Source of the DNA: a virus | Taxonomy: Duplodnaviria; Caudoviricetes | Strand: one strand, 5' to 3' | Virus record (IMG/VR): IMGVR_UViG_3300020029_000569 | Span: 1 to 64,000 of that record | DNA length: 64,000 nt | Part shown: positions 42,901 to 57,618 of the stretch, piece after piece | Layout of the letters: each line of letters opens with the position of its first letter | How positions within the stretch are numbered: position 1 is the stretch's first letter | The notes under the pieces: model-generated | The model's input: the letters and a program-made list of their open reading frames with translations, nothing else | What the model was told of the DNA's origin: nothing | The model's database searches: none | Position numbers and translations under genes: made by a program

Positions 42901-45015
42901 TATGGACGTATTGTAACAGGGGGTGTAAATATTATAGATTATATTAATGTGCCTGAATGTTGGACTAAACACCCACTTATTTCATGGTCATGGGATGGAC
43001 TTAATCTACTACCACAAGAAGTTAAATACTTTTCATTCTACATGACCAAAAACCTTAATGGTAATTATATTCAGTGGGTAGCAGATGCCTTTGATTTACT
43101 TGATGAAAATGGCAATGTAACCACAAATAGAGGTAAAGCAGTAGCAGTAGCAGTAGATATGAAATCATTGCTACAATACAACATAATAAACAAATTCAAT
43201 ACCCTTGCAACCTATCAATTTGTAGAAGGAGATATACTTAAAATTATTGACGATTGTGATAATCCAATATTTTACAGAATAACGGGGACTACCTTTGGAA
43301 CTCCCGAACAAACTGCACTTGAACAAGAACTTACAGTAACAAACAATGTAGGGGATACGGCAACTACTAAAACTAATTATGCTACCGCAAACGGAAGTAC
43401 TATTATCATTCCTTATGATGGACAAATAGATGCTTTATTAGAAAGTTGTGGGATTAAGATTGAAATTGACAGACCCTATGAATGTCAAGACAACTCATAT
43501 CCGTTTTTTGAATTATGCTGCATGATACCCGTTTACGAAGGAGTGCCAATGGATCATTTTTGTTGTGATGGAGGTAGTGGCGAAAGTGGCGGTTCGGGTA
43601 GTGGTTCGGGTAGTGGAGATTTAACGGGTTGTGTACTTAACGCATTTGACACTTATAAGATTTTCAGAAACATACCTCGAATATCTGATTGCAGTGCAAA
43701 CCCTGACGATGACCCTTACTTCTCAAATAATGTAACTGATTTTTGGGGTGCAGGTGTAGGTAGTTTTGGTAGGATAGGTGCAAGAAATCCATACGCACAA
43801 AGGATATGGGAACAAAACAGAGTAGCAAGAAGTCAGGCATGGATAAATAATGGAATCGTAAACGGACTTGCGACATTTTGGAATGAGAACGTAAAAGATT
43901 ACGATACTCAAAACTTCGGGGGCATACAAGCGATGTACGCATTCAGAAACTTTGTTGGATTTATCTGTACGCAGGACTTCTTTGCAGCAGACTACAACGT
44001 ACCTTATCTTTATAATGATGGTGAACAAATCAGGGTAACTTCACTTGACAGAAATTTAGGCGAACCAAAACAGAAGTCAGGAATGAACTATGGATGTTTC
44101 CAAGATAACACAAGCAGCATAGTTTTCAATGACGGATTAGCATACTACTATTCACAGAATGAGTATATCATGTGTGATTTTAATACTGCTATTGACATAG
44201 GAAAAGACGGAGTGAAAAGTTGGATGATAGATAAAAACAAATATCTTCAAAACTTCAACAAAGCAATAGCGGATCAGGGTGCTTATGATTACTTTTTATT
44301 TGAAGTAATTTCGGGTTATGACCCTATGAATGACGAAGTAGTAACAACAGTAAGACCAAGAAACGGGTTATCTCAAAATACCAAGTCATTTGTAAATGAA
44401 AATAGAGATATTAGGATAGAAGTAGGGGAAACTATTGTGTATAACGCTATTTTAAAATCATGGGTTAATTTTAGAGGGTATGTACCCGAATACTATGGCA
44501 AACTCAAAAATGCCAAAAGCGGTATGCAGATGTACACCTTTGTATGTGGATTGCCCTATCAGCATAATAATCTTCAAGGAACGTACGGTACATTCTATGG
44601 GCATAAACAAACACCAGTAGTTGAAGTATTGGTAAATAATACCGACAGCAAAGTAAAAATATACCTTAGTGCCTCACAAGAAATATTGCCACAAACAATG
44701 TTTGTGGATAGGATAATGTCAGAGGAAGTTAATTCACTTTCGTACCTACCAATGCCCTATTGGACGAAAAAGGAAAATATCTTTTACGGGGCATTTTGGA
44801 GGGACATGGCAAGCTATTGGGATGCTAACTATATGCAGGAATCAACCTATTTTGAAGGTAAGAGAATATTCGGTAAATTTGCATTTATGAGATATGTAAA
44901 TACATACGATAATTCAGATAAGTACTTTGCATTAACTCATTTTTGGACTTTAGTAACAGGTAGTGAACTTTCTATGAAACCACAAATCGCTGCACCAAAC
45001 CAACAAGGACAATAA
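39919..45015 (+). CDS. Tail nozzle/muzzle (stabilisation, P22 gp10-like) protein
   Basis: 1698 aa; SRFLKNVR, LYWFVWNS, GYDP.NDE, KKENIFYG, EGKRIFGKFA. Confidence 0.75.
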   Translation: MEQVNIPKFPVKLQLDAAHEKMQDIESRFLKNVRVLQNANPNNTNLSGNNTKTGSNAGSQTPLLSNKLVDNEFVLPLGTNKTIGTYESKETNELYWFVWNSNLQHTVNVIDGITEQCYTVFKGSCLEFSLDPKYAIPEHKVYLQLTYDATIIDGEQVKTLLEKELIFTDALNNVRQINVFASIGSNSFTTDYFKPVFPHYNACCDYITLAPIAPMYCPQVELIKRVQGADGHAIDKELPNQLFNNPLQIAYNFGYVDNRPSSASPYSTPIIVGGTDCADQNPETLPRCAKVKFWAGNAFVNLINIYFRSAPNGNWYLYDTIFKHNCPDENVHWWERTEAWNDFNYNEEDNTIEYTFCANKECTPIDQSLFEHIENNIPFASVALSPAGNNLLLANTLVGSDNLTCEQVSSFSISVTPQESDVCEIPKRQIKIYMIIRNDSNDGHGHGNECQFLFGNSKGGNQPIDGRFYFGGFGWRRNPATTQMRVAIDGRSGWDSWKGYKQYVPSTIEEQTGGFVGYLAGTNFVSISSQVKYFDGNCDVEELGIIYRDLSTMYNPNGSFDSLVEALKDGEYLILQEFVFEDVPAGKYVFRVAGHRSGMDNGFEQTSSYVYGSEAITPCAVESGECVTPAIRNDYEWTIDVCECDYNSLNDGYLMKLLDLTYPDFENDLRNVITYNFVREVYVYEDENNSIPFEKQQANFEFGKFKDKITGIDVTVDGFEVGGVPLLLIDPLTTNIAGIGFPIPCPPAPLLPFAGMLDTPSGVENTTLRITDHNGFVFHREQFWRWRLFFNVLNCLPFDMTAQFGEPTLGTFSITYTDKCYNLNFKDVQVGITKVQPPVTLLNNKGYKGLLGTVSVSTGTADDECNRYLIKGNLKDTDGNALVGANIGYTGSQFVMTDGFGNFSLIAHQNTSFDRSDYFIISNVGSACTIVCVDSEDCTLCCEDTYQEITLDDTPCVLCEKLEIDMGDFVFKKINFPDRGLKGRYGIGGVGWDCYGRIVTGGVNIIDYINVPECWTKHPLISWSWDGLNLLPQEVKYFSFYMTKNLNGNYIQWVADAFDLLDENGNVTTNRGKAVAVAVDMKSLLQYNIINKFNTLATYQFVEGDILKIIDDCDNPIFYRITGTTFGTPEQTALEQELTVTNNVGDTATTKTNYATANGSTIIIPYDGQIDALLESCGIKIEIDRPYECQDNSYPFFELCCMIPVYEGVPMDHFCCDGGSGESGGSGSGSGSGDLTGCVLNAFDTYKIFRNIPRISDCSANPDDDPYFSNNVTDFWGAGVGSFGRIGARNPYAQRIWEQNRVARSQAWINNGIVNGLATFWNENVKDYDTQNFGGIQAMYAFRNFVGFICTQDFFAADYNVPYLYNDGEQIRVTSLDRNLGEPKQKSGMNYGCFQDNTSSIVFNDGLAYYYSQNEYIMCDFNTAIDIGKDGVKSWMIDKNKYLQNFNKAIADQGAYDYFLFEVISGYDPMNDEVVTTVRPRNGLSQNTKSFVNENRDIRIEVGETIVYNAILKSWVNFRGYVPEYYGKLKNAKSGMQMYTFVCGLPYQHNNLQGTYGTFYGHKQTPVVEVLVNNTDSKVKIYLSASQEILPQTMFVDRIMSEEVNSLSYLPMPYWTKKENIFYGAFWRDMASYWDANYMQESTYFEGKRIFGKFAFMRYVNTYDNSDKYFALTHFWTLVTGSELSMKPQIAAPNQQGQ

Positions 45016-45016
45016 C

Positions 45017-45343
45017 ATGGCACTAATTACATACTTTGAACCAAATTGGGAACGAACAGTAAGGGCGGCATACGCTGAAAGTAAAAGCAATGCAATTACA
45101 GATGCAGCAGTGCAAAATATAGGTTTTTTAATTAAAAATAATTGCTATCTTTACAGAGTAGAGGACACTTCAAACGGTAGTTTTATTGGTTTTGTAGTAT
45201 ATGAAGGGAACGGAGTACCATTGTTAAATTACAATGGAGATTTGATACCAAAAGCAGGACACATAAGGCCGCAGTTTGAAGTTCAACCTATCATAGCAGA
45301 GTATAATTATATCTTAACAACAACCGTAAACAATAATATTTAA
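45017..45343 (+). CDS. Small protein between nozzle and cargo genes (possibly degenerate GNAT)
   Basis: FIGFVVY...HIRPQF; position. Confidence 0.4.
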   Translation: MALITYFEPNWERTVRAAYAESKSNAITDAAVQNIGFLIKNNCYLYRVEDTSNGSFIGFVVYEGNGVPLLNYNGDLIPKAGHIRPQFEVQPIIAEYNYILTTTVNNNI

Positions 45344-45345
45344 CA

Positions 45346-46089
45346 ATGTGGGGGGCCATAATTCAACTTATCGCAGGTTTAGGGACAGCAGGATATAACG
45401 CCTACAAAGCCAATAAAACCAAAAAAGAACTTAAAGACTTAGGTGATGTTGACTATACTATACCACAAGGATATGGAGATAATGTAGGAGTTACAGCAAA
45501 TGAATTAGCGCAAGGTGGGATAGATGCAGATACTCTAAATAAAATATTAGGACAATACCAACAACAATTTGCAGCATCTTCTAATTCAGTTTTACAAGCG
45601 GGTGGAGGTGTTAACGACATTGCTAAATTATACGGAAAATTTAATGACAGCGTAACTAAATTAGGGGTTCAAAGTACAGCATTAAGAAACCAAAAATTAG
45701 AGAATTACTTACAGTCCGTATCTACTTATGCAGGACAAGGAGCATTGCAATGGAAACTTAACCAATACGATAGAAACCGTAATGATAAAGCAGCAGCATC
45801 GGCAGCACTTCAAGGTTTTAATCAGGGGACAAATAGCGGGGTAAACATGGCAGTTCAAGGCGGTGTAAACTTAGGAAATTACTTAAATTCACCAAGCGTA
45901 AATACAAACCAAAGTCAATACAATGACATGGTTAAGAAAGCATTTGCAAGTGAAACAGACCCCGTTTTCTATAATAACAATTTTGGTAACCCGCCACTTG
46001 CAAGCACTCAATACGCAAACCAAAACCAAGCAAACAACGCTATTGATATAGGCGGTATGAACAATGTAAACCAAATGTGGAATTTTTAA
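45346..46089 (+). CDS. Internal virion (ejection/pilot) protein
   Basis: Hydrophobic G/A N-terminus, Q/N/G/A-rich, no Cys. Confidence 0.7.
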   Translation: MWGAIIQLIAGLGTAGYNAYKANKTKKELKDLGDVDYTIPQGYGDNVGVTANELAQGGIDADTLNKILGQYQQQFAASSNSVLQAGGGVNDIAKLYGKFNDSVTKLGVQSTALRNQKLENYLQSVSTYAGQGALQWKLNQYDRNRNDKAAASAALQGFNQGTNSGVNMAVQGGVNLGNYLNSPSVNTNQSQYNDMVKKAFASETDPVFYNNNFGNPPLASTQYANQNQANNAIDIGGMNNVNQMWNF

Positions 46090-46090
46090 A

Positions 46091-47926
46091 ATGGCATACA
46101 CGGAACAAACATTTACGAATTTAGGCAGTGTACAAGCCCCCGATGCAAGTCAATCAACAGCATTTGCAGGTAGTACCCCATTTGCATTTTCAGAAGGTAC
46201 TAATCAACTACTTAACCAAGTAACACAACAAGCGGTAAAGAGAAGGGAAGATGAAGTAAAAATGTACAATGATAATCTGCAAGCAGCGTTATCAAAAGCA
46301 AGTAACATAGCAGAAGGTTTGTCAGCACAAGATTATGATGAAGCAAAATCTAAATCTAAAAAGGCAATTAAATACATTTACGATAATCCTCAAATATTAT
46401 TAGGCAAAGACCCCGAAAAGTCAAACGAATTTAATAATATGCTTGTGGACATTGCATCATACACGCAACTCTCAAAAGCAACAAAAAAAATAGAGGATAA
46501 CTACAACGACCTCATTAAAAAAGATAGTGATTGGAATAACGAAGTGAATAATTATTATTTACAACAATACCGAAATACAACAGACCCTAACGAAAGGGCA
46601 AAAATGGCTTTTACTCCAATTAAAAATCCATTAGGTGATTTCCAAACATTAGTAGTACCTAAACTTCAACAAAACGCACCGATAGAAACACGCACAGAAG
46701 TTGACCCTAATGATAAAGGTAAATTAATTGTTTACCAAGATAAAATATTTGATGAAGGTGTTTATAAAGAAGCATTCAAAAACTACAACGGGGCGTATCT
46801 TACAGAAGAATGGAATGTAAGACCTGACATTCAACAACAATATGCTACTCCTGACGAATACATTGAATTTAAGGCAAAAGAAACATTCGTACCAAAAGCA
46901 ACAAGCAAAAGCAGTGTTACCAATAATGTATCTTATGTTGAAGGTAAAAAGAACGAAAGAAACCAAGCAAGTATAGAAGGTAGGGCAACAGAAGGAGAAG
47001 CAAACCGTAATAACAAAATAAGGTTACAGGAATTAAAAGAAACCCAAACTTCAACTAATCCACAATACAAAAATATTGCACCTATACTTAATAATATAGA
47101 CGGTTTTGAAAGTAATGTAATGAAAACAGTTGAAGCTACCCCCGCAATTGAAAAAATGACAGGTATAAAACAATACAAAGAGGTAAATCCTGCATTTATA
47201 AACGAAACAATTATTAAAGGAGTTTATCCAAATGGCGCAAGTCAATACGGGGATGCTTATGGAAAATTGTATATCGTAACGGATGCAAAAGGTAATTCAT
47301 ACTACGCTCCTGCAAAGGAATTATTCAAAGTTAAGGGCAAACCTGCAACAAAAGAAGAATACGAAGCGGCACAAAAAATATCACCTACCTCAGTTTCAAA
47401 AGAAGTGCTACCAAACAACGACAAAGGACGGCAATACACCAAAGAAACATTATTAGGTAGTGCAGTTGATAATACTGGTAATGGTAGATTTGAGTATGAT
47501 ATTTGGAAGAAAAATAACCAAGAAATACAAACCTTAGAAACGGAAGTTAACAAACCACAATCAGTACAAAAGCAAACATATAAATATCCCAAAATAACAG
47601 GGTATGTAGAAGAACTTAAAAATGATGGAATTGGCATAGGTTCAATAGATACAGGTGGGCATAATAAAGGCTCTTTACATGGCAAAACATTGGCAGTTGA
47701 TTTGCCTGCTTCTAAGAATGGTGGAATTGAAGGGCTGAAAACATTATTGCCAAAATTAAGAGAAAAATATCCCGAATTGGATATTGTAGATGAAATTACA
47801 AAACCAACAGGACAAAGCGTTTGGACGGGGGCGCATATTCATATCGAAATGGACGGAAAAAAAGCAAATTTCCCAGAAGTACAAGTAACAACAACAAAAA
47901 AAGATTGGAGTAAATACAAAAGATAA
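46091..47926 (+). CDS. Internal virion protein with C-terminal M15/LAS-type zinc peptidase domain
   Basis: GHNKGSLHGKTLAVD...HIHIE. Confidence 0.72.
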   Translation: MAYTEQTFTNLGSVQAPDASQSTAFAGSTPFAFSEGTNQLLNQVTQQAVKRREDEVKMYNDNLQAALSKASNIAEGLSAQDYDEAKSKSKKAIKYIYDNPQILLGKDPEKSNEFNNMLVDIASYTQLSKATKKIEDNYNDLIKKDSDWNNEVNNYYLQQYRNTTDPNERAKMAFTPIKNPLGDFQTLVVPKLQQNAPIETRTEVDPNDKGKLIVYQDKIFDEGVYKEAFKNYNGAYLTEEWNVRPDIQQQYATPDEYIEFKAKETFVPKATSKSSVTNNVSYVEGKKNERNQASIEGRATEGEANRNNKIRLQELKETQTSTNPQYKNIAPILNNIDGFESNVMKTVEATPAIEKMTGIKQYKEVNPAFINETIIKGVYPNGASQYGDAYGKLYIVTDAKGNSYYAPAKELFKVKGKPATKEEYEAAQKISPTSVSKEVLPNNDKGRQYTKETLLGSAVDNTGNGRFEYDIWKKNNQEIQTLETEVNKPQSVQKQTYKYPKITGYVEELKNDGIGIGSIDTGGHNKGSLHGKTLAVDLPASKNGGIEGLKTLLPKLREKYPELDIVDEITKPTGQSVWTGAHIHIEMDGKKANFPEVQVTTTKKDWSKYKR

Positions 47927-50900
47927 TGCCAATAAAAAAAACATATCAGTTAGGTAATGAAAAGTTTGATATTCCCGTAGAGGAAACACAGGCATTTTTA
48001 GCAGATAATCCCGATGCAGTAGAACTAAGTAGCTTTGTTGTTGGGAAAGATACGTTTGATATTCCTTTGCCCGAAGTTGAATCTTTTTTAGCAGATAATC
48101 CTGATGCTAAAGAAACATTTGGCGCAGTAAAAAAAAAAGAAACTCCGATACTATCACCGAACAAACCAAAAGCAGAATATCCTATCGCAAGTGGTTTATC
48201 AAGTGGCTCAATACCTCAATCACCTACACAAAGTACCCCAACGGTACAAAGCAATGGACAATCACAAAAAAGTAGTTTTTGGAAGGATGCTATAACAGCT
48301 ACTAAAGAAAATATTGCCCAACAAGGGAAAGTAAATAGACCTATTAAAGAAGATATTTTTACTCAAAATATATCAGGTGTAAAATCACCTATTGAAGTTG
48401 CAAGTAAGCCACAAAAGAAAGCAATAAAAGTTAATCTTAATGAGCAACAACAAAAAGAAGAAGATTACAAGCAGTCGTTACGAGATAAAATAAATTCAGG
48501 CATACCATTAGATATAGAAGAAACTAAATATGTAAAAAAAGCATTTGGGAAAATTGCACCACAAATAGGTAGTTTATCTGTTGCGGAAATTAATCAAGGG
48601 TTATTTGATGCAAACAAAAAAAATACACAACAACGTAGGGATGAATTGCTCAAAGAACATGAATTTGCTGATGTAAATAATAGAATAAAAAATGGCGAAG
48701 TAAGTAAAGAAGATTTACAGATAGCACAGGATAATGGGTTAATCCCACCATTTTTAAAATCAGAACAAGCCGAACAACTAAGGGTTAATTGGAATGCTGA
48801 TATTAAAAATGCTCATGCTGAAATAGATAATGCGCTTTCAAATAATATATCATCAATAGTCCAAAATCAACAAACAGAAAACGATAGGATTGACGCACTT
48901 AAAGCAGGTATCCGTTCTGAAAATTATTATCGTAAAGAAGATACGCCACAAAGGATTGCTCATATAAAAGATATGGAAAATGAGTTATTCCAACTTGAAA
49001 CTAAAAGAAAAAGAGAAGATGATTACCTAAACTCATTAGTTGATAATACTATCAAAGAAAGTCAAAGAGATATAATGATGATGGGTGGTTTTGAATTTGA
49101 CAAAGATAATCGTGGATTGCTTACTGAAAAAGGGCGTGCAGAGGTGGCAAAAGCAGTAGAAGATTATGTAGCAAAACAACCAGCAAGTAAACAGTTTTTG
49201 CTTAATTATAAAAATATCCGTAAAGAATCTTCACTAAAGTATCTCGTATCTCCTCTCATATCATCTCAATTCAAAACATCTGACGTTACAAAAGGAAATG
49301 CTTATTTAGAAGAAGTTGTCGCAAGGACAGCGGAAATATTGCCAAAGTATTTTAAGAATTACTACAAGTCAGTAGATGAAATTTCAAAAGACTTACCAAA
49401 AGAAGCAAAAGGACTTGTAAAGCAAGTCGCTGGAATAGAAGGTGGTACATTTGATAATAATTTTCGTCCAAAATTACTAAATGAGCAAGAAAAAGTAGCA
49501 GCAGTCAATACATTGAAATTCATGGAAATGAAGGGAGATGTAGATAGTCAAAATGCAAAATTTGAACAAGTAGTAAACACGCCACAAGTCAAATCGGTAT
49601 TAGGGCAAGAGTTAACAGACCTTGAAAACAAATACAATAATAAGGAGATAAATGGCGCAACTTTCAAAAACGAAAGACTTAAATTATTATACCTTAATCC
49701 TCAAACAAAATCATTAGCAGAACAATATATACAATCAGTTACAAATGCACAAAATAAGTATGAAAAAGACGTAAATGATTATTTAAAATCTATTCAGCCC
49801 GATTTTGCTAAATATACTAAAATTGATAATAAAGGAAATATAGTTTCTATTGCAGGGATGAAACCTGAAAAATTTGCATCCGTAATGACTGAATTGCAAA
49901 GTGCAAAACAAGTTTCAGAAATAAATGCAACTAAAGAAGTAATACAGGATAGAGAACAGAGAGGTAATGAAGCAATGGGTGAACCTACTGATATGAAAAT
50001 AATCCAACAAGGGTTTACGTCAGGATTAAATAATATGTACACCGCAAGGGCAAAATGGCTTTATGACCAAACAGGCATTGACTTTTTTAATGATGCAAGA
50101 ATAGGTGGAGAAATGGTTTTAAATACTGCAAATCAACCTAACGAAAGTACATTTGCAAAGGACAATTTTACATTAGAAGCAGGAGATTGGATGGGTGCAT
50201 TGAATCCTGCTTATATACTTCATACAGCATCTTCAAGCGCACCGTATATGATGGAAGCGATGGGTACAGGAATAGGCATAGGCGGTATTGCTAAAAATGT
50301 GCTATTAGAAGCAGGATTAGGAGAAGGAGTAGCATTATCAAGGTCGGGTAGATTAATTCAAAAATCACTTGCAGGGGCAAGCGGTGGTAGTCAGGATGCT
50401 TTTAGTACAATGGTATCAAACTATAATGATTTAGTTAAAGAAGGATTTAGCGTTAAAGATGCTGATAGAATTTCAAAAGAAGCATTTGTAAAAGAGGTAG
50501 TACCTGATATGTTATTTAGTGGAATTGGGATGGAAGGATTATTTAGGGCAACTGCAAAACCAACATTAAAAAATGTACTTAAAAGAACTGCTACAACATT
50601 TTTAGAACAAATACCCGAAGGCGCACAAGAAGCTATACAAGGGTATGCTTTAGAAGATGCGAAAGGAACAAAAGAAAATATATTCAATTATGCGTTAGAG
50701 GATAAGGATGGTTTTAATAATTTGATGGGTGGTTTTTCAGGTGGATTAGGAAGCGGTACGGTAGTATCGGCAGTAGGATTGGCAAAAGATACATACGGTT
50801 GGAATAAACTTTATAATATTTCAACTTCTGATATGCAAGATGCAGTAAGATATAGTGCAGTTGCAAATATGGTAAATAATCCTTCGGATATAAAATCACA

Positions 50901-53900
50901 ATCAGCATTAGACATGATGAAATTAAGCATGGATGATTACCGAAAGGTGTATATGGAAACTCCCGAAACGGATAAATTAGCAAAAGACAAGGCACGTCAA
51001 GATTATTCAAATTCATTAAGAACTTACGCCTATGCCAAAGAGTATAATAGGCAAGCACAAAAATCTAATGTAGAGGACATTCACGCTGATTACAAAGCAC
51101 ATAACCGAGCAGTAGCAAACTCGTATCAAAAGTTAGCTGATAATGCAGAAGAAGCAAATAAAAAAACATACCAAAAACAAGCTGACCATTATACTCAATT
51201 AGCGGACAAAGCAGAATACGGACAGCAAACTCCTATCTATGCTTTTGAAACTAATACAGGTAGAGTATTCATTACAGAAAGCACAGCTAAGACACTCGCA
51301 GAAGGTAGTATTTTAGATAAAAACGATAAGTTTAATGATGCAGTAAAGAATGGAGTAATTACAGGAATACAGGTTATTGATGATAGCGAAACCAATAAAA
51401 AACTTACTGAAAAATTTGCAGAAGCACAAAAGAAAAAAGCACCACCGATAGCACCAATCATTTCAGAAGAACAAGAAAATCAAATAGATAATTCAAATAC
51501 CACACAAGGAATAGGAGTAGTTGAATCTAATGGTAAATTCACTGTTGTTAATCCTAATGGAACTAAAGAAGTATTTGATACAAAAGACGAAGCAGATGCG
51601 AGAGCATTGGAAATAGCAAACCCTAAAACTGAAAATAAAGCAGTAGAAAATATAATATCTATTGAGGACAGAAAAAGAAAAGATTTATTTCCTGACGAAT
51701 CAGAATTTGCAGATGTTATCGGAGAAAGCGGTAAAAATTCAAATATATCATCATACAGAGAAGTGAACGGTATTGGAATATCTGAATATACTAATCCTGA
51801 TAACGGTTTGGTTGATGTAATAATGTCAGGCACATCAGATAACGACTATGTAGGATACGTTAGAATTTATGAAAACGGTAAGCCGACAGAAAGGTGGACT
51901 TCTAAAATGGAGAACAAGTCAGGCAATAAAGAGAATTTTAAAACTATGATTTCGGAAGTACAAAAATTACTTCCACAAGGGCATGAATATACCGAAAAGA
52001 CAAACATTTCATTAGACGGATTAAGAGTTTATGCCAATCAATTAAACAGAGGATATGAAATTGCTACCGATGAAAATGGAGATGCTATAACAAACAATGT
52101 AGAATTAAATAACGCTACATTAGAGGCATTACAGGGGGCAAAAACAGAAAGCGAAGTAAGTAGTTTATACGACAAAAAAACAGGCATAACTAAAGAAGAA
52201 TTTGATAAAATAAAAGATAAAATAAATTCTCTTATTCCTAATACAAGGGTACTATTCAATTCTTCTAATGGTTCTGTCATAATAAAATTACCTGTACTAA
52301 AATCTAAAACCCAAAATGCTACACAAAACACAGAAATTGCAAGTGCAGAAAGCACAACAACTATTGGACAAAACGAATTGCCCCAAACGGAAGGAACGGT
52401 TAATGAAAATGTTACTGAAACTCAAAAACCTATTTCAGCAACATTAGAAGGTAAACCTATAACCATTGAAAAAACAGAAACGGGTTACACCTACACCACC
52501 GCAAAAGGAATAGTAGAGGAAGTTTCAGAAACAGAACACCAAGAAAATATTGCAGACAACTCATTGGTTATACCAAAAACTACGCCTGATGAAAAAATAG
52601 TAAATGATAATACATTTACAAGGGATGATATGAAGTCAGTATCTGACGGTACAGGACTAGCCAAGAAAGGTGCTGAGGTAATGACAACTGACAAAGTAGA
52701 ATCTAATTTAAGAGTAGGCGATAAGGTTACATTTTTTGCAGAAAAAGAAAGAAGTGGGGTATGGGATGGAAAATCAATAAAAGACAAAGACGGAAATCCT
52801 TGGGGGGTAATGGGTATTTTAGCAGATACTAATGGATGGATAAGAAATGATACTAAAATTGAAGAATCTAAAAAAGAAGCAGTAGTAAGCAGTACGGATG
52901 CTATCGAAGTACCCACAACCACTGATACGCCTACTGCTGAAACTGCAACCAAAGGAGAACCCGAAAGAATATCACAACCTATTGAATTAGACCCAAACAT
53001 TACATCACCATTAAATACAGAACAAGATGCCATTCAAAAGTCAGAAACAGAGGGCGGCGTGTTACGCACAGAACAACCCAAATTGGAACTGCAAAGCGTG
53101 GGAGAAGGAAACACCCAAGAGCAAACCGCTACCACAGAAAGTGAAGCCAAAAAAGAAACCATAACTCCTATTCAAAGAATAACAGGTAACAAAGATGCAG
53201 TAACATTAAGTGGGTTAACAGAAAAAGAAAGGCAACAACAAATTGCAGAAAGAGATAACAGTTTAAAACTTTCAAAAGAAAAAGAAGCTGAAAGTAATTT
53301 AGCGGGACAAGTACGAAGGTTTAATGAAATGCGCAGGAATGATGCCAAAAGACCAAGATTACTTAATGACATTAGAAAAGCATCAACGGAACAAGGATTT
53401 GAAGTTAAGTATGACGGTAAGGGAATTGAGGTATTAAAGAAAACCAAAAAAGGCAAACCGACTAAAATAAACTCTTATTCATCAGAAGTGGGCAGACGTA
53501 GCACAACTAATGAAAAAGCATTGCATGAAAGAAGTGAAGCGGTACAAGACCTTTATGTGAAATTAATGGATTTGGGTATTGATTTGGATTTAAGAAATTC
53601 AGACGATAATAGTCGTTTTTCTGAATCACAAATAGAAAGTGCAATAACAGATATTGAAAATGGAATACCAAGCAGACAAGCAAATGAAATATTAAACAAA
53701 GTTGAAGCATTAGCGGAAACGGGTAAATTAGAAGTAGGTGATAAAGTAAGTGGGTATAAGTCAATTCCTATTGATGAATTAATTACAGAAGCAGAAGAAT
53801 TAAGAAGCGAAGAACTTTTTAAAGACCTTACAAATGATGAAGTTTTTGAACTTTACTCAAACGAATTACTTGCATCAAACGAAACCGATAACATTATAAA

Positions 53901-56900
53901 CCAAGAATATGAAAGAATTAACAATGAAGGAGCAGTTTCAAGCACTCCCGAAACAAGCACAACAGACAGCAGTACAGCAAATGAAGAAACATCTGATGAA
54001 AAAGGAACTAACGAAGCGACTTATGAAACAAAAGAAACAGATGTAGTTGAAAGCGCATCCAAAAATATATTTAACGAAACAAAAGAAAGCATCAGCAAAA
54101 AAATAAAATCAGTTCAAGAAAAAATATCAAAAGCGATAAATGATGGGATAAGTAAGTGGGGTTCTAAAAAAGGGTATTACGGGGAGGAATATGGAGATCA
54201 AAACGAAAAAGAAATTAATATCCCTAATTATACTTTTTCCGATAAGAGAAATGTAGAAGGTTCTGAATATAAAGAAGATTTCGATAATTATAGAAAACTA
54301 ACAACAGAAGCTCAGAAGTTACATGAGTTATTGGATGCTGTGAATCCAAAATTAGAATCAGAAAGTTCAAAAAACCTAAAGAAAAGGTTAGGTAGTATTG
54401 CCTTTAATTTTAGTTCTAATTCAGATACGGATAAAATACTTTTATCAAAAGAGGTAGATAATATTCTTAAAGAGTTAGAAAGCAGAGACGAAAATGTTGA
54501 TGGAGAAAAACTGTTAAGCGATTATTACAATGCGGATGCAGATGAATCGCAAATTCAACAAATGAAAAATAATTCTGCTGAAATAACAGAGTTGATTAAA
54601 TCAAATACGCCCACAAAACTGATTGGAATAGTACCAGAAAAAATATCAGAATCATTTGATAAACTTGCTGATAAAATATTAGCATTAAGGTCAAAAGGAG
54701 ATAGCCTAAAAACTGATATTACTTTAGGACTTAAAGATGCCGCACTAACAGAAATAGCATCTCTAATAAGAGATATTGGTACAGTCGCAGACAAGGTAGC
54801 AGAGGTGATAAAAGCTATCAATAAAGTACTTTCAAAACCCGAATACAAAGACCTAAATAAAGATGAAATTAGGAATGAAGTTTTATCTGCCATTAATCCT
54901 ATCAGCGATGCAAATAAAAAGTACTTAGACGGGGTAATTAAAAATATCGAAGATGGCAAAACTACTCTCGAAGAAGAAATAAAAGACATTCAAGACGACC
55001 TACCTAAAAGGTACGCTGACAAATACATAAAATACCTCAATGATAATTATACACCAAAACAAGAAAATAAAAAAGAAAAAACCGATAACACCAAAACCGA
55101 AGCCAAAGAAACAGAAGTATTAAGCGAAGAAGATAATCAAGCAGGCATAGCACATAGACTGACAGAAGAAACAAGGAAAGAATTAGGATTGCCAGAATAT
55201 GAAAAAGAAACGATAACTGATGCCGAATTGGATGGTATGGCTGATGCTGAAATTAAAAACGGGTACAATATTAAAAAGTTAGTTACTAAAATGGCAAAAG
55301 GGGTATTACCTACTGCCTTAGAACAAACTATAATGAAAAAGTATCTTGCAAGTTTGGAAGCGCAGATAGAAAAAAATCCTACCAATGAATCAATAAACGA
55401 TTACAAAACAGCCGTTGAAGCGAGTGATGCAATAGGTTCAGAAATAGGTAGAAGTCTTAGAAGCAGGAGAGGTGGTATCATTAAAGATGATAGTATTGCT
55501 GCATACTTTTTAACTGAATTGGAATCATCGGGTGTTGACGAATTAACCGAAGCGCAAAAGAACAAAGTACAAAAAGAGTTCAACGATATTCAGGAAGCGA
55601 ACAGGAAATTACAAGAAAAAATAGCACAGTTAGAAATTGAAAATGCTAAAATATTGGCAGACAAGGCTATTGCTAAAGAAGCAAAAACAAAGTCTAAAAA
55701 AGAAGATTTAAAGAAGCAAAAAGAAGATATTAAAGAATCTATCAAGCAGAAACTAAAAGAAGCAAGAAGCCAATTAAGTTCTACCCCTGTACCGTATCTG
55801 AATGAAATATTAGCAATTACACCTGATGTTGCTAAATTAGTAAAAGTATATGCAGAAGAAGGGATTATCAAATTAGACGAAATTGTAGATAATATCCATG
55901 CTATTATTAAAGAAAATTCAGACAACATAACTAAAAAAGATATTATAGATATTATAGCGGGTAAATACAATGAAAGAAAACAAACCCGTTCTGATATTGC
56001 AAAACAACTTTTAGACCTTAGAACACAAGCTAATTTAGTCGGCAAATTAGAAAGTTTAGAAAATGGGATTGAACCTAAAACCGAAACTAAAAAAGTGGAA
56101 AGGAATAAGGAAATATCTTCTTTGAGAAAAAAAATAAATGAGAATTATCTTACTAAATTATCCTCTGCAAAAAATACTATTCAAAACCAAATTGACAAAC
56201 TTAGAGAAGATTTAAGCACAGGAAACTTTTTAGATAAACAAGAAAACCAAGAACTTAAATTAGACAAAGAAGCTATTGCATTAAAAGACGAATTGATTAA
56301 GTTGAAGAAAGAAAGAGATATTAGACTTTTAAGGCAACAATATCAAAACAGGTCATTAAAGCAGAAAGCAGTTGATTCTTTTTTGGAGATAATTAATGTG
56401 CCAAGAACAATAATGAGTTCAATGGATTTTTCAGCCCCTTTAAGACAGGGGTTAATTGCAAGCATATCCCACCCCACAGTTGCATTTAAAGCATTTGGGG
56501 AAATGTTCAGGCAAGCGGTTTCTCAAAAAAGATTTGACAGGTGGTTTAATGATATTCGAGAAAGCGAGTTATTTGAAATAATGGAGAAAAGTGGTTTGTA
56601 TGTAGCTGCCCCTCACGACCTTAGATTATCTGCCAAAGAAGAACAGTTTATGAATAATCTTGCAGAAAAAATACCGTTCATTGGGGGTGCAGTAAGAATA
56701 CCTCAATCAGTACCATTAATAGGGGGTAAGAAAATTGGAGGATTAATAAAAGGCAGTGAACGTGCGTATGTATCTTACTTAAATAAAATGAGAGTAGATT
56801 TATTTACACAAGGCGCACAGGTATTAGAATCAATGGGTAAGACTTATGATAATAGTCCTAAAGAATATGAAGGTCTTGCAAGTTTTGTAAATAACTCAAC

Positions 56901-57618
56901 AGGTCGTGGTAAATTAGGTGCTATTGAATCCGCAGCACCAATATTAAATTCAGTATTCTTTTCTCCAAGATTAATTGCATCGAGGCTTAACTTATTAAAT
57001 CCCTTGTACTATGCTCAATTACCACCATACGCCCGTAAAATGGCATTAAAAGATATGACTAAATTTATAACTTTTGGTGTTACATTATTGGCTTTAATAA
57101 AACAAACGTGGGGGTGTCCTGATGATTGCCCCGAATGTACAGATTGCGCCAATATCGAATTAGACCCAAGAAGTACTGATTTTGGCAAAATACGAGTAGG
57201 TAATACAAGGTATGATGCATGGGGTGGCTTTCAACAGTACGCAAGGATAATAGCGCAAATGATAACGGGGGAAGCAAAATCTTCAACAACGGGTAACGTC
57301 AGAAAAATAGATGGTGAAGGTTTGTTTGGCAAGGATAGAGCCGATGTTTTAGGATCATTTTTTAGGGGTAAATTAGCACCTGTTCCTGCATCTATTTTAG
57401 ATATTGTATCGGGTAGGAATATTATTGGAGAAAAAGTAGATGCAAAAATGATAGCAGAAAGAACCCTATTACCTCTAATATACAGTGATGTTAAAGAAGC
57501 AGTAAATGAGCAAGGAATTAAAGCATTAGCAACAGTAGGATTGCCCGCAGCATTTGGTATCGGGGTAAATACATATACTCCAAAAAAATCAAAATACGAT
57601 AAAGAAGAAACTAAATGA
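47926..57618 (+). CDS. Giant (3230 aa) polyvalent internal virion protein
   Basis: Last cargo gene; G/A-rich membrane-like middle; coiled coils; C-terminal PRTIMSSMDFSAPLRQG...ELDPRSTDFGK region. Confidence 0.8.
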   Translation: MPIKKTYQLGNEKFDIPVEETQAFLADNPDAVELSSFVVGKDTFDIPLPEVESFLADNPDAKETFGAVKKKETPILSPNKPKAEYPIASGLSSGSIPQSPTQSTPTVQSNGQSQKSSFWKDAITATKENIAQQGKVNRPIKEDIFTQNISGVKSPIEVASKPQKKAIKVNLNEQQQKEEDYKQSLRDKINSGIPLDIEETKYVKKAFGKIAPQIGSLSVAEINQGLFDANKKNTQQRRDELLKEHEFADVNNRIKNGEVSKEDLQIAQDNGLIPPFLKSEQAEQLRVNWNADIKNAHAEIDNALSNNISSIVQNQQTENDRIDALKAGIRSENYYRKEDTPQRIAHIKDMENELFQLETKRKREDDYLNSLVDNTIKESQRDIMMMGGFEFDKDNRGLLTEKGRAEVAKAVEDYVAKQPASKQFLLNYKNIRKESSLKYLVSPLISSQFKTSDVTKGNAYLEEVVARTAEILPKYFKNYYKSVDEISKDLPKEAKGLVKQVAGIEGGTFDNNFRPKLLNEQEKVAAVNTLKFMEMKGDVDSQNAKFEQVVNTPQVKSVLGQELTDLENKYNNKEINGATFKNERLKLLYLNPQTKSLAEQYIQSVTNAQNKYEKDVNDYLKSIQPDFAKYTKIDNKGNIVSIAGMKPEKFASVMTELQSAKQVSEINATKEVIQDREQRGNEAMGEPTDMKIIQQGFTSGLNNMYTARAKWLYDQTGIDFFNDARIGGEMVLNTANQPNESTFAKDNFTLEAGDWMGALNPAYILHTASSSAPYMMEAMGTGIGIGGIAKNVLLEAGLGEGVALSRSGRLIQKSLAGASGGSQDAFSTMVSNYNDLVKEGFSVKDADRISKEAFVKEVVPDMLFSGIGMEGLFRATAKPTLKNVLKRTATTFLEQIPEGAQEAIQGYALEDAKGTKENIFNYALEDKDGFNNLMGGFSGGLGSGTVVSAVGLAKDTYGWNKLYNISTSDMQDAVRYSAVANMVNNPSDIKSQSALDMMKLSMDDYRKVYMETPETDKLAKDKARQDYSNSLRTYAYAKEYNRQAQKSNVEDIHADYKAHNRAVANSYQKLADNAEEANKKTYQKQADHYTQLADKAEYGQQTPIYAFETNTGRVFITESTAKTLAEGSILDKNDKFNDAVKNGVITGIQVIDDSETNKKLTEKFAEAQKKKAPPIAPIISEEQENQIDNSNTTQGIGVVESNGKFTVVNPNGTKEVFDTKDEADARALEIANPKTENKAVENIISIEDRKRKDLFPDESEFADVIGESGKNSNISSYREVNGIGISEYTNPDNGLVDVIMSGTSDNDYVGYVRIYENGKPTERWTSKMENKSGNKENFKTMISEVQKLLPQGHEYTEKTNISLDGLRVYANQLNRGYEIATDENGDAITNNVELNNATLEALQGAKTESEVSSLYDKKTGITKEEFDKIKDKINSLIPNTRVLFNSSNGSVIIKLPVLKSKTQNATQNTEIASAESTTTIGQNELPQTEGTVNENVTETQKPISATLEGKPITIEKTETGYTYTTAKGIVEEVSETEHQENIADNSLVIPKTTPDEKIVNDNTFTRDDMKSVSDGTGLAKKGAEVMTTDKVESNLRVGDKVTFFAEKERSGVWDGKSIKDKDGNPWGVMGILADTNGWIRNDTKIEESKKEAVVSSTDAIEVPTTTDTPTAETATKGEPERISQPIELDPNITSPLNTEQDAIQKSETEGGVLRTEQPKLELQSVGEGNTQEQTATTESEAKKETITPIQRITGNKDAVTLSGLTEKERQQQIAERDNSLKLSKEKEAESNLAGQVRRFNEMRRNDAKRPRLLNDIRKASTEQGFEVKYDGKGIEVLKKTKKGKPTKINSYSSEVGRRSTTNEKALHERSEAVQDLYVKLMDLGIDLDLRNSDDNSRFSESQIESAITDIENGIPSRQANEILNKVEALAETGKLEVGDKVSGYKSIPIDELITEAEELRSEELFKDLTNDEVFELYSNELLASNETDNIINQEYERINNEGAVSSTPETSTTDSSTANEETSDEKGTNEATYETKETDVVESASKNIFNETKESISKKIKSVQEKISKAINDGISKWGSKKGYYGEEYGDQNEKEINIPNYTFSDKRNVEGSEYKEDFDNYRKLTTEAQKLHELLDAVNPKLESESSKNLKKRLGSIAFNFSSNSDTDKILLSKEVDNILKELESRDENVDGEKLLSDYYNADADESQIQQMKNNSAEITELIKSNTPTKLIGIVPEKISESFDKLADKILALRSKGDSLKTDITLGLKDAALTEIASLIRDIGTVADKVAEVIKAINKVLSKPEYKDLNKDEIRNEVLSAINPISDANKKYLDGVIKNIEDGKTTLEEEIKDIQDDLPKRYADKYIKYLNDNYTPKQENKKEKTDNTKTEAKETEVLSEEDNQAGIAHRLTEETRKELGLPEYEKETITDAELDGMADAEIKNGYNIKKLVTKMAKGVLPTALEQTIMKKYLASLEAQIEKNPTNESINDYKTAVEASDAIGSEIGRSLRSRRGGIIKDDSIAAYFLTELESSGVDELTEAQKNKVQKEFNDIQEANRKLQEKIAQLEIENAKILADKAIAKEAKTKSKKEDLKKQKEDIKESIKQKLKEARSQLSSTPVPYLNEILAITPDVAKLVKVYAEEGIIKLDEIVDNIHAIIKENSDNITKKDIIDIIAGKYNERKQTRSDIAKQLLDLRTQANLVGKLESLENGIEPKTETKKVERNKEISSLRKKINENYLTKLSSAKNTIQNQIDKLREDLSTGNFLDKQENQELKLDKEAIALKDELIKLKKERDIRLLRQQYQNRSLKQKAVDSFLEIINVPRTIMSSMDFSAPLRQGLIASISHPTVAFKAFGEMFRQAVSQKRFDRWFNDIRESELFEIMEKSGLYVAAPHDLRLSAKEEQFMNNLAEKIPFIGGAVRIPQSVPLIGGKKIGGLIKGSERAYVSYLNKMRVDLFTQGAQVLESMGKTYDNSPKEYEGLASFVNNSTGRGKLGAIESAAPILNSVFFSPRLIASRLNLLNPLYYAQLPPYARKMALKDMTKFITFGVTLLALIKQTWGCPDDCPECTDCANIELDPRSTDFGKIRVGNTRYDAWGGFQQYARIIAQMITGEAKSSTTGNVRKIDGEGLFGKDRADVLGSFFRGKLAPVPASILDIVSGRNIIGEKVDAKMIAERTLLPLIYSDVKEAVNEQGIKALATVGLPAAFGIGVNTYTPKKSKYDKEETK
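47962..48108 (+). repeat. Two 30-aa tandem repeats FDIPxxExxxFLADNPDA at the giant-protein N-terminus
   Basis: TTTGATATTCC and TTTTTAGCAGATAATCC each repeated 90 nt apart. Confidence 0.85.
48129..48275 (+). other. A10 slippage site and -1 frame extension of the giant gene
   Basis: GTA AAA AAA AAA GAA; -1 frame open to TAG at 48273. Confidence 0.55.
52316..52447 (+). CDS. Nested +1-frame 43-aa basic ORF inside the giant gene
   Basis: MLHKTQKLQVQKAQQLLDKTNCPKRKERLMKMLLKLKNLFQQH; leader TAAAATCTAAAACCCAAA. Confidence 0.5.
   Translation: MLHKTQKLQVQKAQQLLDKTNCPKRKERLMKMLLKLKNLFQQH
53027..53164 (+). CDS. Nested +1-frame 45-aa MPFKS-type basic ORF inside the giant gene
   Basis: MPFKSQKQRAACYAQNNPNWNCKAWEKETPKSKPLPQKVKPKKKP. 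Confidence 0.7.
   Translation: MPFKSQKQRAACYAQNNPNWNCKAWEKETPKSKPLPQKVKPKKKP
53909..54046 (+). CDS. Nested +1-frame 45-aa basic ORF inside the giant gene
   Basis: MKELTMKEQFQALPKQAQQTAVQQMKKHLMKKELTKRLMKQKKQM; A-rich leader. Confidence 0.45.
   Translation: MKELTMKEQFQALPKQAQQTAVQQMKKHLMKKELTKRLMKQKKQM

What the first reader, a model, noticed from the sequence alone, without database searches (positions are those of the whole stretch)
48108..48275. A10 slippery run in the giant gene opens an ATG-less -1 frame with a folded-looking tail
Seen: right after two FDIP..FLADNPDA repeats comes GTA AAA AAA AAA GAA (A10, 48129-48138). Frame 0 then turns S/P/T/Q-rich. The -1 frame reads KKKRNSDTITEQTKSRISYRKWFIKWLNTSITYTKYPNGTKQWTITKK* (stop 48273-48275), is closed upstream by TAA 48108 and has no ATG. 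Established: long A runs cause RNA polymerase slippage and A_AAA_AAA supports -1 frameshifting. Inference: a 116-aa short isoform shares the repeat module with the 3230-aa protein and may set cargo stoichiometry, like tail-chaperone G/GT but in an ejection gene.
Basis: partly seen in the sequence, partly recalled or inferred. Interest (0 to 1): 0.8.

Follow-up and report, generated by a model that had tools for sequence, protein, structure and literature searches.

The report
Conserved A10 slip site, giant phage protein
A run of ten A's placed just after a small conserved starting domain of a 3230-residue phage protein is kept letter for letter in many distant relatives. It most likely makes the polymerase (or ribosome) slip, so that one gene yields both the giant protein and a roughly 100-residue short form, a known trick that I found no published description of in this gene family.

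Summary
A10 lies at 48129-48138, codons 68-71 of the 3230-aa ORF 47926..57618. The -1 frame has no ATG and runs to TAG 48273-75, giving a 116-aa product.

In this window alone the run is not beyond chance: about 1.8 runs of A10 or longer are expected in 64 kb. The comparison with relatives is what decides it.
- The N-terminal twin-repeat module heads at least 144 clusters of phage proteins, many of them giant. 60% carry a K-run at residue ~65.
- Of 30 unique DNA loci picked by the module alone, 16 have exactly A10, one has A11 and one A9. The other 12 have no run longer than 8.
- The run keeps its length in two codon phases, so the nucleotides are conserved, not the KKK.
- After the run the -1 frame, but not the +1 frame, is kept open at synonymous sites (median 32 codons). 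In relatives without the run the median is 5.
- No conserved RNA structure flanks the run.
- The tails are not conserved in sequence, and in one relative's short form AlphaFold2 leaves the tail disordered.
- Some assemblies carry A9 or A11 with a broken gene.

Best reading: programmed slippage, most likely transcriptional and dnaX-like. Rivals are -1 ribosomal frameshifting and DNA-level phase variation. No RNA or protein evidence was available. This scan has noted other conserved A9/A10 slip sites in other phage genes, on other DNA.

The parts
47926..57618 (+). Giant ORF (3230 aa), frame 0. Its ATG overlaps the TAA of the upstream 611-aa gene (TAATG, 47924-47928).
   Evidence: No Pfam or PHROG hit. 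Syntenic homologues P0001, P0002 and P0003 are polyvalent-type giants carrying RadC, Eco57I-like, helicase, LPD38, ddrB-ParB and MuF_C hits.
47926..48111 (+). N-terminal twin-repeat module (aa 1-62): two beta-hairpin plus helix units.
   Evidence: phmmer found 221 proteins at E<=1e-3, and the module is N-terminal in nearly all. AlphaFold2 gives pLDDT 90 with order E-E-H-E-E-H. No PDB fold match and no Pfam family.
48129..48138 (+). A10 slippery run (GTA AAA AAA AAA GAA; codons 68-71), holding in-phase A_AAA_AAA heptamers.
   Evidence: The exact A10 stands at the same place in 16 of 30 independent homologous loci, in two codon phases. No other run of A9 or more occurs in 41 kb of these ORFs.
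48130..48275 (+). -1-frame tail read after a +1A transcript or a -1 shift (about 45 aa beyond the KKK). It stops at TAG 48273-48275, giving a 116-aa short isoform.
   Evidence: The frame is kept open at synonymous sites across the family.
48108..48110 (+). TAA that closes the -1 frame upstream, so the -1 ORF cannot be entered by initiation.
48131..48295 (+). +1-frame stretch (54 codons to TAA 48293-48295) that a -1A or +2A transcript would read, giving products of 122-123 aa.
   Evidence: Its openness is what the amino-acid sequence predicts: Fisher P=0.85 across the family.

Best explanation
The A10 run is a conserved, selected slippage site placed immediately after the N-terminal module of a family of giant phage (polyvalent-type, probably virion-carried) proteins. 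The most likely mechanism is transcriptional. RNA polymerase stutters on the ten A's and makes a mixed mRNA population. Unslipped (or +3A) transcripts give the 3230-aa protein. The commonest slipped class (+1A) puts ribosomes in the -1 frame. These produce a roughly 90-116-aa protein made of the module plus a 20-48-aa basic and aromatic, probably unstructured tail (116 aa here), and translation of the remaining 9.3 kb is abandoned. The site therefore makes a free copy of the module and lowers output of the giant protein in a fixed ratio, as Thermus dnaX does for gamma and tau.

Shown: the run, its exact conservation at nucleotide level, the open -1 frame and its link to the run, and the absence of flanking RNA structure.

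Inferred: that slippage occurs, that it is transcriptional, and that the short form has a function of its own. One possibility is that it occupies or regulates the module's binding site during virion assembly.
For: (1) Position and length. Of 30 unique module-bearing loci chosen without regard to the run, 16 have exactly A10, one has A11 and one A9, all at codons 63-69. The other 12 have no run longer than 8.

(2) Nucleotide-level, not protein-level, conservation.
- The run is 10 long in phase 2 (NNA AAA AAA AAA G) and in phase 1 (GAA AAA AAA AAG or AAC, where AAG or AAC ends it at 10).
- At the 14 phase-2 sites, 42 of 42 Lys codons are AAA, against 63% elsewhere in the same ORFs (0.628^42 = 3e-9).
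- The preceding codon ends in A in 14 of 14, against 36% background (6e-7).
- KKK occurs 3 times elsewhere and is never all-AAA.
- No other run of A9 or more occurs in 41 kb.

(3) Breadth. 87 of 144 cluster representatives (at most 50% identity to each other) have a K-run at residue ~65, against 3% of equal-sized windows elsewhere. The loci are about 57% identical downstream of the run, which is near background. The run-bearers form a large sub-family with a few losses.

(4) The -1 frame.
- It is open for 10-48 codons (median 32) after the run, against synonymous-resampling medians of 6-18. Fisher P = 6.6e-7 over 16 loci.
- At 194 control positions the same test gives P<=0.1 in 5% of cases, against 10 of 16 at the sites (binomial 8e-10).
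- Relatives without the run have a median of 5 open codons at the same place (Mann-Whitney P=0.002).
- The +1 frame shows no such signal (P=0.85).

(5) No consistent RNA structure lies within 75 nt downstream or 60 nt upstream (z-scores about -2 to +1). This fits length-driven polymerase slippage better than stimulated ribosomal frameshifting.

(6) Established knowledge. Bacterial RNA polymerase slips efficiently in vivo on runs of 9 A or T and mostly adds bases. Thermus dnaX uses such a run to make about 50% short product (Atkins et al. 2016, PMC5009743).
Against: - There is no direct RNA or protein evidence. Only assembled contigs could be laid on the site.
- The -1 tails are not conserved in sequence. 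Their composition equals the out-of-frame expectation, and the tail of a relative's short form is predicted disordered. A specific function of the tail is therefore doubtful.
- In-phase A_AAA_AAA or A_AAA_AAG heptamers are present in both phases, so -1 ribosomal frameshifting gives the same product and is not excluded.
- A9 and A11 versions with a broken gene occur in public assemblies, and one of two contigs of the same strain has A11. The tract may therefore also vary in DNA.
- E. coli RNA polymerase is reported to slip less on A-runs than on T-runs in the coding strand (abstract of PMC6260861).
- The polymerase that transcribes this gene is unknown. The search for a T7-type polymerase in the record found nothing, but its control did not ring.
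- 12 of 30 relatives do without the run.
Confidence: 0.5

Rival explanations
1. Programmed -1 ribosomal frameshifting on A_AAA_AAA (or A_AAA_AAG in phase-1 relatives). The mRNA is faithful, and a fraction of ribosomes slip back one base and finish in the -1 frame. The products are the same as in the best explanation.
For: In-phase heptamers are present in every A10 locus in both phases. Phase-1 relatives such as L015 carry the classic dnaX heptamer A_AAA_AAG. The frame kept open is the -1 frame.
Against: Seven bases would suffice, yet exactly ten are conserved, whatever the phase and whatever the 3' neighbour (G, C or T). No conserved downstream stem-loop or upstream element was found. A run of this length is expected to make polymerases slip in any case (PMC5009743).
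Confidence: 0.2
2. DNA-level contingency locus. The A10 tract is a hypermutable repeat. Replication slippage to A9 or A11 switches the giant protein off (or back on) in part of the phage population, for instance to escape a host defence that senses it.
For: Assemblies exist with A11 (L050, L052) and A9 (L051, L053) in which the giant ORF continues in a shifted frame. About 15 frameshift-type short proteins are among the cluster representatives, of both the A9 and the A11 kind. Run X2 has A11 where run X3, with the same strain SNPs, has A10.
Against: In the sample chosen by the module alone, all 18 run-bearing loci are in frame and 16 are exactly A10, across lineages with saturated synonymous sites. 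Stabilising selection on one length is not the pattern of a contingency locus. The off-length contigs that were looked up are short (0.6-5 kb) and may be low-coverage errors. An on/off switch does not explain why only the -1 frame is kept open.
Confidence: 0.12
3. Pure attenuator. Slippage, or ribosome sliding and stalling on the AAA lysine track, serves only to cut the yield of a very costly 9.7-kb gene product that is needed in few copies. The short products are waste.
For: The tails are unconserved, with by-product composition and predicted disorder. Iterated AAA codons lower protein output in E. coli (Koutmou et al. 2015, PMC4363877, abstract seen).
Against: Waste products would not need an open -1 frame, yet stops are specifically avoided there, and only in relatives that have the run. 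A weak ribosome-binding site would attenuate more cheaply. My recollection, not checked here, is that the sliding effect needs 11-12 A's, and this run has ten.
Confidence: 0.1
4. No function. The run is a chance product of an AT-rich genome and a lysine-rich linker.
For: About 1.8 runs of A10 or longer are expected by composition in this 64-kb window.
Against: The same exact run stands at the same place in 16 of 30 distant relatives, some at 45% GC, with complete synonymous-site conservation and a linked open -1 frame.
Confidence: 0.03

Closest known systems
Thermus thermophilus dnaX (tau and gamma by transcriptional slippage on a 9-base homopolymer)
   Same: A homopolymer run of 9 or more inside one long ORF. 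Slipped transcripts give a shorter protein that shares the N-terminal part with the full-length one. No RNA structure is needed, and the ratio of products is fixed (PMC5009743).
   Different: In dnaX both off-frames stop almost at once, and gamma keeps two thirds of the protein. Here the -1 frame is kept open for 20-48 codons and the short form keeps only about 2-4% of the protein, a single 62-aa module. The gene family is unrelated, and slippage has not been shown experimentally here.
E. coli dnaX and phage tail-chaperone G/GT programmed -1 ribosomal frameshifts
   Same: An in-phase X_XXY_YYZ lysine heptamer (A_AAA_AAG in some relatives), and two products with a common N-terminus from a phage structural-region gene.
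   Different: G/GT extends the protein and lies between the tail tube and tape-measure genes. E. coli dnaX has a Shine-Dalgarno-like element and a stem-loop. Neither context nor stimulators are found here, and ten rather than seven bases are conserved.
Frameshifts in poly(A) tracts of insect endosymbionts and Citrobacter tssM, rescued by transcriptional slippage
   Same: Some relatives carry A9 or A11 with the giant ORF out of frame. If these are real, they could still make full-length protein by slippage, as in those systems (PMC4256274; references listed).
   Different: Those are mostly tolerated or rescued mutations. Here the in-frame A10 is the conserved state.
Polyvalent proteins of phages and conjugative elements (Iyer et al. 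2017, PMC5512222)
   Same: Giant multi-domain proteins encoded beside head and packaging genes. The syntenic relatives P0001 and P0003 carry typical domains: RadC, ddrB-ParB, MuF_C and helicase.
   Different: The paper's text contains neither 'frameshift' nor 'slippage', and this N-terminal module matches no Pfam family. The window's own protein has no recognisable domain.

Membership tests
Programmed transcriptional slippage site (Thermus dnaX type) | Homopolymer A or T run of about 9 or more inside the ORF | tested here: met
   A10 at 48129-48138.
Programmed transcriptional slippage site (Thermus dnaX type) | The run is conserved at nucleotide level, synonymous sites included, among diverged homologues | tested here: met
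   16 of 30 loci have exactly A10, in two phases. 42 of 42 Lys codons are AAA, and the preceding third base is A in 14 of 14.
Programmed transcriptional slippage site (Thermus dnaX type) | mRNA population with added or missing bases at the run, beyond what the DNA shows | not testable with these tools
   Only assembled contigs were available. One run labelled cDNA (possibly DNA) has A11 and its sister run has A10, which is inconclusive.
Programmed transcriptional slippage site (Thermus dnaX type) | A trans-frame protein product is detected | not testable with these tools
   No proteomic data. The short proteins in the databases are gene calls on A9 or A11 assemblies, not observed proteins.
Programmed -1 ribosomal frameshift (E. 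coli dnaX, phage G/GT) | In-phase X_XXY_YYZ heptamer with an open -1 frame downstream | tested here: met
   A_AAA_AAA here, A_AAA_AAG or A_AAA_AAC in phase-1 relatives. The -1 frame is open for a median of 32 codons.
Programmed -1 ribosomal frameshift (E. coli dnaX, phage G/GT) | Stimulatory element: a downstream stem-loop or pseudoknot at 5-9 nt, or an upstream SD-like sequence | tested here: not met
   16 loci were folded 75 nt downstream and 60 nt upstream. Z-scores run from about -2 to +1, and no common hairpin or spacing appears. Pseudoknots were not modelled.
Tail assembly chaperone G/GT | Gene pair between the major tail and tape-measure genes, where the shift extends the protein | tested here: not met
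   The site lies 68 codons into a 3230-codon gene and the shift truncates it. The neighbours are large unannotated proteins.
Phase-variable contingency locus (simple-sequence repeat) | Tract length differs among close relatives, with on and off states both common | tested here: inconclusive
   A9 and A11 off-states exist. But in the unbiased sample 16 of 18 runs are exactly A10 and all 18 are in frame.
Polyvalent proteins (Iyer et al. 2017) | A giant polypeptide that joins several conflict-related enzymatic or DNA-binding domains, encoded in a phage packaging or structural neighbourhood | tested here: inconclusive
   Neighbourhood: terminase at 26195-28186 and conserved synteny with P0001-P0003. 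Domains are present in the relatives, but none is detectable in the window's own protein.

The most novel reading that the evidence does not exclude
The A10 works at two levels. It acts as a transcriptional stutter that sets a fixed ratio of giant protein to free N-terminal module. It also acts as a mutable DNA tract whose A9 and A11 variants stay viable because slippage restores some full-length protein. The free module, a new beta-beta-alpha tandem fold, competes for or primes the virion site to which the giant injected protein is anchored. In this way it sets how many copies are packaged. That would be a copy-number control for injected phage effectors that has not been described.
Probability: 0.15. 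Interest if true: 0.75.

Novelty: new member of a known kind. Interest (0 to 1): 0.6.

Why it matters
Giant polyvalent proteins are thought to be packed into phage heads and injected to disarm the host. How their dose and packaging are controlled is unknown. A slip site conserved in most of a large sub-family, directly behind a shared and previously undescribed N-terminal module, points to that module as the functional handle. It also points to recoding as the control, and both ideas can be tested directly.

There are practical consequences as well. Gene callers split or truncate these genes wherever an assembly has A9 or A11, and about 15 such 'small proteins' are among the cluster representatives. 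Annotators should expect a second, roughly 100-aa product.

Together with other A9/A10 sites that this scan has noted in unrelated phage genes, the finding adds to the case that homopolymer slippage is a common expression device in uncultured phages.

Tried and rejected
- BLASTN of the gene's 5' end against the phage collection found no match.
- PHROG and Pfam scans of the giant protein and its neighbours gave nothing usable.
- The search for related loci with the single protein found nothing. The 31-row alignment was too loose for the metagenome scan. A degenerate DNA pattern brought mostly unrelated loci, L022-L024, L027, L028 and L030, which were dropped.
- Laying sequencing runs gave contigs only, so it says nothing about RNA heterogeneity. 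Parts without cover are not interpreted.
- Two frameshift-type proteins, P0036 and P0076, had no retrievable DNA.
- Foldseek of the module against the PDB gave no match at E<=0.001.
- A search for a T7-type RNA polymerase in the record found nothing, but its control did not ring either, so it is uninformative.
- The promoter and terminator scan around the gene was at shuffle level.
- I looked for a conserved -1 tail peptide or a special composition. Composition equals the synonymous null. A natural variant strain changes the tail about as much as it changes frame 0. The shared 'STITI'-like endings reflect a frame-0 PSPL motif in one sub-lineage.
- The A_AAA_AAG just before the -1 stop (48265-48271) could be a second shift site, but it is not seen in relatives.
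- No complex prediction was run, because no binding claim is made.

Full report
**Observation.** The window is the first 64 kb of a 92-kb IMG/VR virus record with 34% GC. The ORF 47926..57618 encodes 3230 aa. Its ATG overlaps the stop of the upstream 611-aa gene.
- Residues 1-62 are two copies of an approximately 30-aa repeat (FDIP...FLADNPDA).
- Six residues later, GTA AAA AAA AAA GAA gives A10 at 48129-48138. This is the longest homopolymer in the window.
- The -1 frame is closed by TAA 48108-48110, has no start codon and runs to TAG 48273-48275. A +1A transcript or a -1 shift would give 116 aa.
- The +1 frame is also open, for 54 codons to TAA 48293-48295.
- By composition about 1.8 runs of A10 or longer are expected in 64 kb, so the run alone proves nothing.

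**What the gene is.** Neither the giant protein nor its neighbours hit Pfam or PHROGs. A terminase lies at 26195-28186. A word-indexed search with residues 1-500 found three giants of 2390-4348 aa that share only the first 60 residues or so. They lie in the same gene order: a very large protein, a mid-sized protein, a 500-600-aa protein, then the giant. They carry RadC, Eco57I-like, helicase, LPD38, ddrB-ParB and MuF_C hits. This is the make-up of the 'polyvalent proteins' that Iyer et al. 2017 (PMC5512222) infer to be packaged and injected. An exhaustive phmmer search with residues 1-66 found 221 proteins at E<=1e-3. The module is N-terminal in nearly all of them. AlphaFold2 folds it with confidence (pLDDT 90) as two beta-hairpin plus helix units. 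It has no PDB or Pfam counterpart.

**The run in relatives.** I collected DNA loci by the module only: pattern scans of viral and metagenome contigs, plus the contigs that encode the three giants. An HMM search and de-duplication left 30 unique loci.
- 16 have exactly A10, one has A11 and one A9, all at codons 63-69. The other 12 have no run longer than 8.
- The run occurs in two codon phases. Phase 2 is NNA AAA AAA AAA followed by a non-A. Phase 1 is GAA AAA AAA AAG or AAC, where the last codon ends the run at ten. What is kept is therefore the ten A's, not KKK.
- In the same ORFs Lys is AAA only 63% of the time, yet 42 of 42 Lys codons at the phase-2 sites are AAA.
- The preceding codon ends in A in 14 of 14 cases, against 36% background.
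- KKK occurs three times elsewhere and is never all-AAA. No other run of A9 or more occurs in 41 kb.
- The loci are close to saturated at the nucleotide level. Median identity downstream of the run is 57%, and only one pair is closely related.
- At the protein level, 87 of 144 cluster representatives have a K-run centred on residue 65, against 3% of windows elsewhere.
- A module tree puts the run-bearers in one large group with about three or four losses, and puts a separate group of six without the run.

**The alternative frames.** After the run the -1 frame is open for 10-48 codons (median 32).
- When the downstream codons are resampled synonymously from each ORF's own usage, the null medians are 6-18. 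The combined P is 6.6e-7 for the -1 frame and 0.85 for the +1 frame.
- The test is conservative at 194 control positions in the same ORFs. P<=0.1 occurs in 5% of those, against 10 of 16 at the sites.
- In the relatives without a run, the -1 frame at the same place is open for a median of 5 codons (Mann-Whitney P=0.002).
- So stops are avoided in the -1 frame specifically, and only where the run exists. This is the signature of a used trans-frame product.
- The tails themselves are not conserved. Their basic and aromatic composition (21% R+K, 22% W+F+Y) is what out-of-frame reading of the S/T/P/E linker gives. A natural variant strain changes the tail about as much as frame 0.
- AlphaFold2 on a relative's short form (P0036, which equals the predicted +1A product of locus L006) leaves the tail disordered. 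The fused isoform of this window could not be folded under the tool rules.

**Mechanism.** No shared RNA structure lies downstream or upstream. Three things favour polymerase slippage: conservation of ten rather than seven bases, independence from codon phase and from the 3' neighbour, and the known insertion bias of bacterial RNA polymerase on runs of 9 or more (PMC5009743). The commonest slipped transcript (+1A) reads the frame that is kept open. Ribosomal -1 frameshifting on the in-phase A_AAA_AAA or A_AAA_AAG heptamers would give the same product and is not excluded.

Variation at the DNA level also exists.
- Contigs L050 and L052 carry A11, and L051 and L053 carry A9, with the giant ORF continuing in the shifted frame.
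- Many 'short proteins' in the databases are such frameshift calls.
- Of two runs holding the same variant strain of this very phage, one has A11 and one A10.
- These contigs are short and may be errors. All 18 runs in the unbiased sample are in frame, which speaks against a classic on/off contingency locus.

**Comparison and verdict.** The closest known system is Thermus dnaX (tau and gamma by transcriptional slippage), not the G/GT tail chaperone. The slip truncates rather than extends, and the context differs. The text of the polyvalent-protein paper contains neither 'frameshift' nor 'slippage'. Three literature searches found no description of this site. Earlier agents of this scan reported conserved A9/A10 slip sites in other, unrelated phage genes, so the device recurs in uncultured phages. 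I did not re-test those reports.

I rate this a new member of a known kind. The comparative support that the site is functional is strong (about 0.85). Confidence that it is transcriptional is moderate. There is no direct evidence for the short isoform's role.

Noticed in passing
P0047, P0079, P0081, P0082, P0094, P0135, P0149: The same twin-repeat module also occurs away from the N-terminus in proteins that look cellular. Some have signal-peptide-like N-termini or TPR-like repeats. One begins like a protein kinase. One 1546-aa protein has nine matched stretches. The module is therefore a more general, undescribed small domain.
   Followed up: no
window 47934-47941; L015 1206-1213; L003 2516-2522: A second, shorter A-run (A8, A8 and A7) sits at codons 3-5 of the giant gene in several relatives. 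It encodes the conserved KK of the module's first strand, and its length varies.
   Followed up: partly
window 48265-48275: In the -1 frame the stop TAG is directly preceded by an in-phase A_AAA_AAG heptamer. This is not seen at the -1 stops of relatives, so it is probably chance.
   Followed up: partly
window 48127-48272 (run X4, record 10): A much more abundant contig (depth 154, against 14 for the phage itself) matches only the 146 bases from the A-run onward, with 9 differences. Upstream it carries 616 unrelated letters in place of 604. A related phage thus has a different N-terminal region joined at the run.
   Followed up: no
window 48167-48174: Natural variant strains in three runs carry a 1-base insertion after 48167 and a 1-base deletion at 48174. 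This compensated frameshift pair changes a few linker residues but keeps all three frames' openness.
   Followed up: yes
window 39919-47926; L002-L004: Gene order upstream of the giant gene is conserved across phages from 34% to 61% GC: a protein of 1200-1750 aa, then one or two mid-sized proteins, then a 500-610-aa protein. One mid-sized homologue has a weak PG_binding_1 hit. This is consistent with an internal-virion or ejection module with no family annotation.
   Followed up: partly
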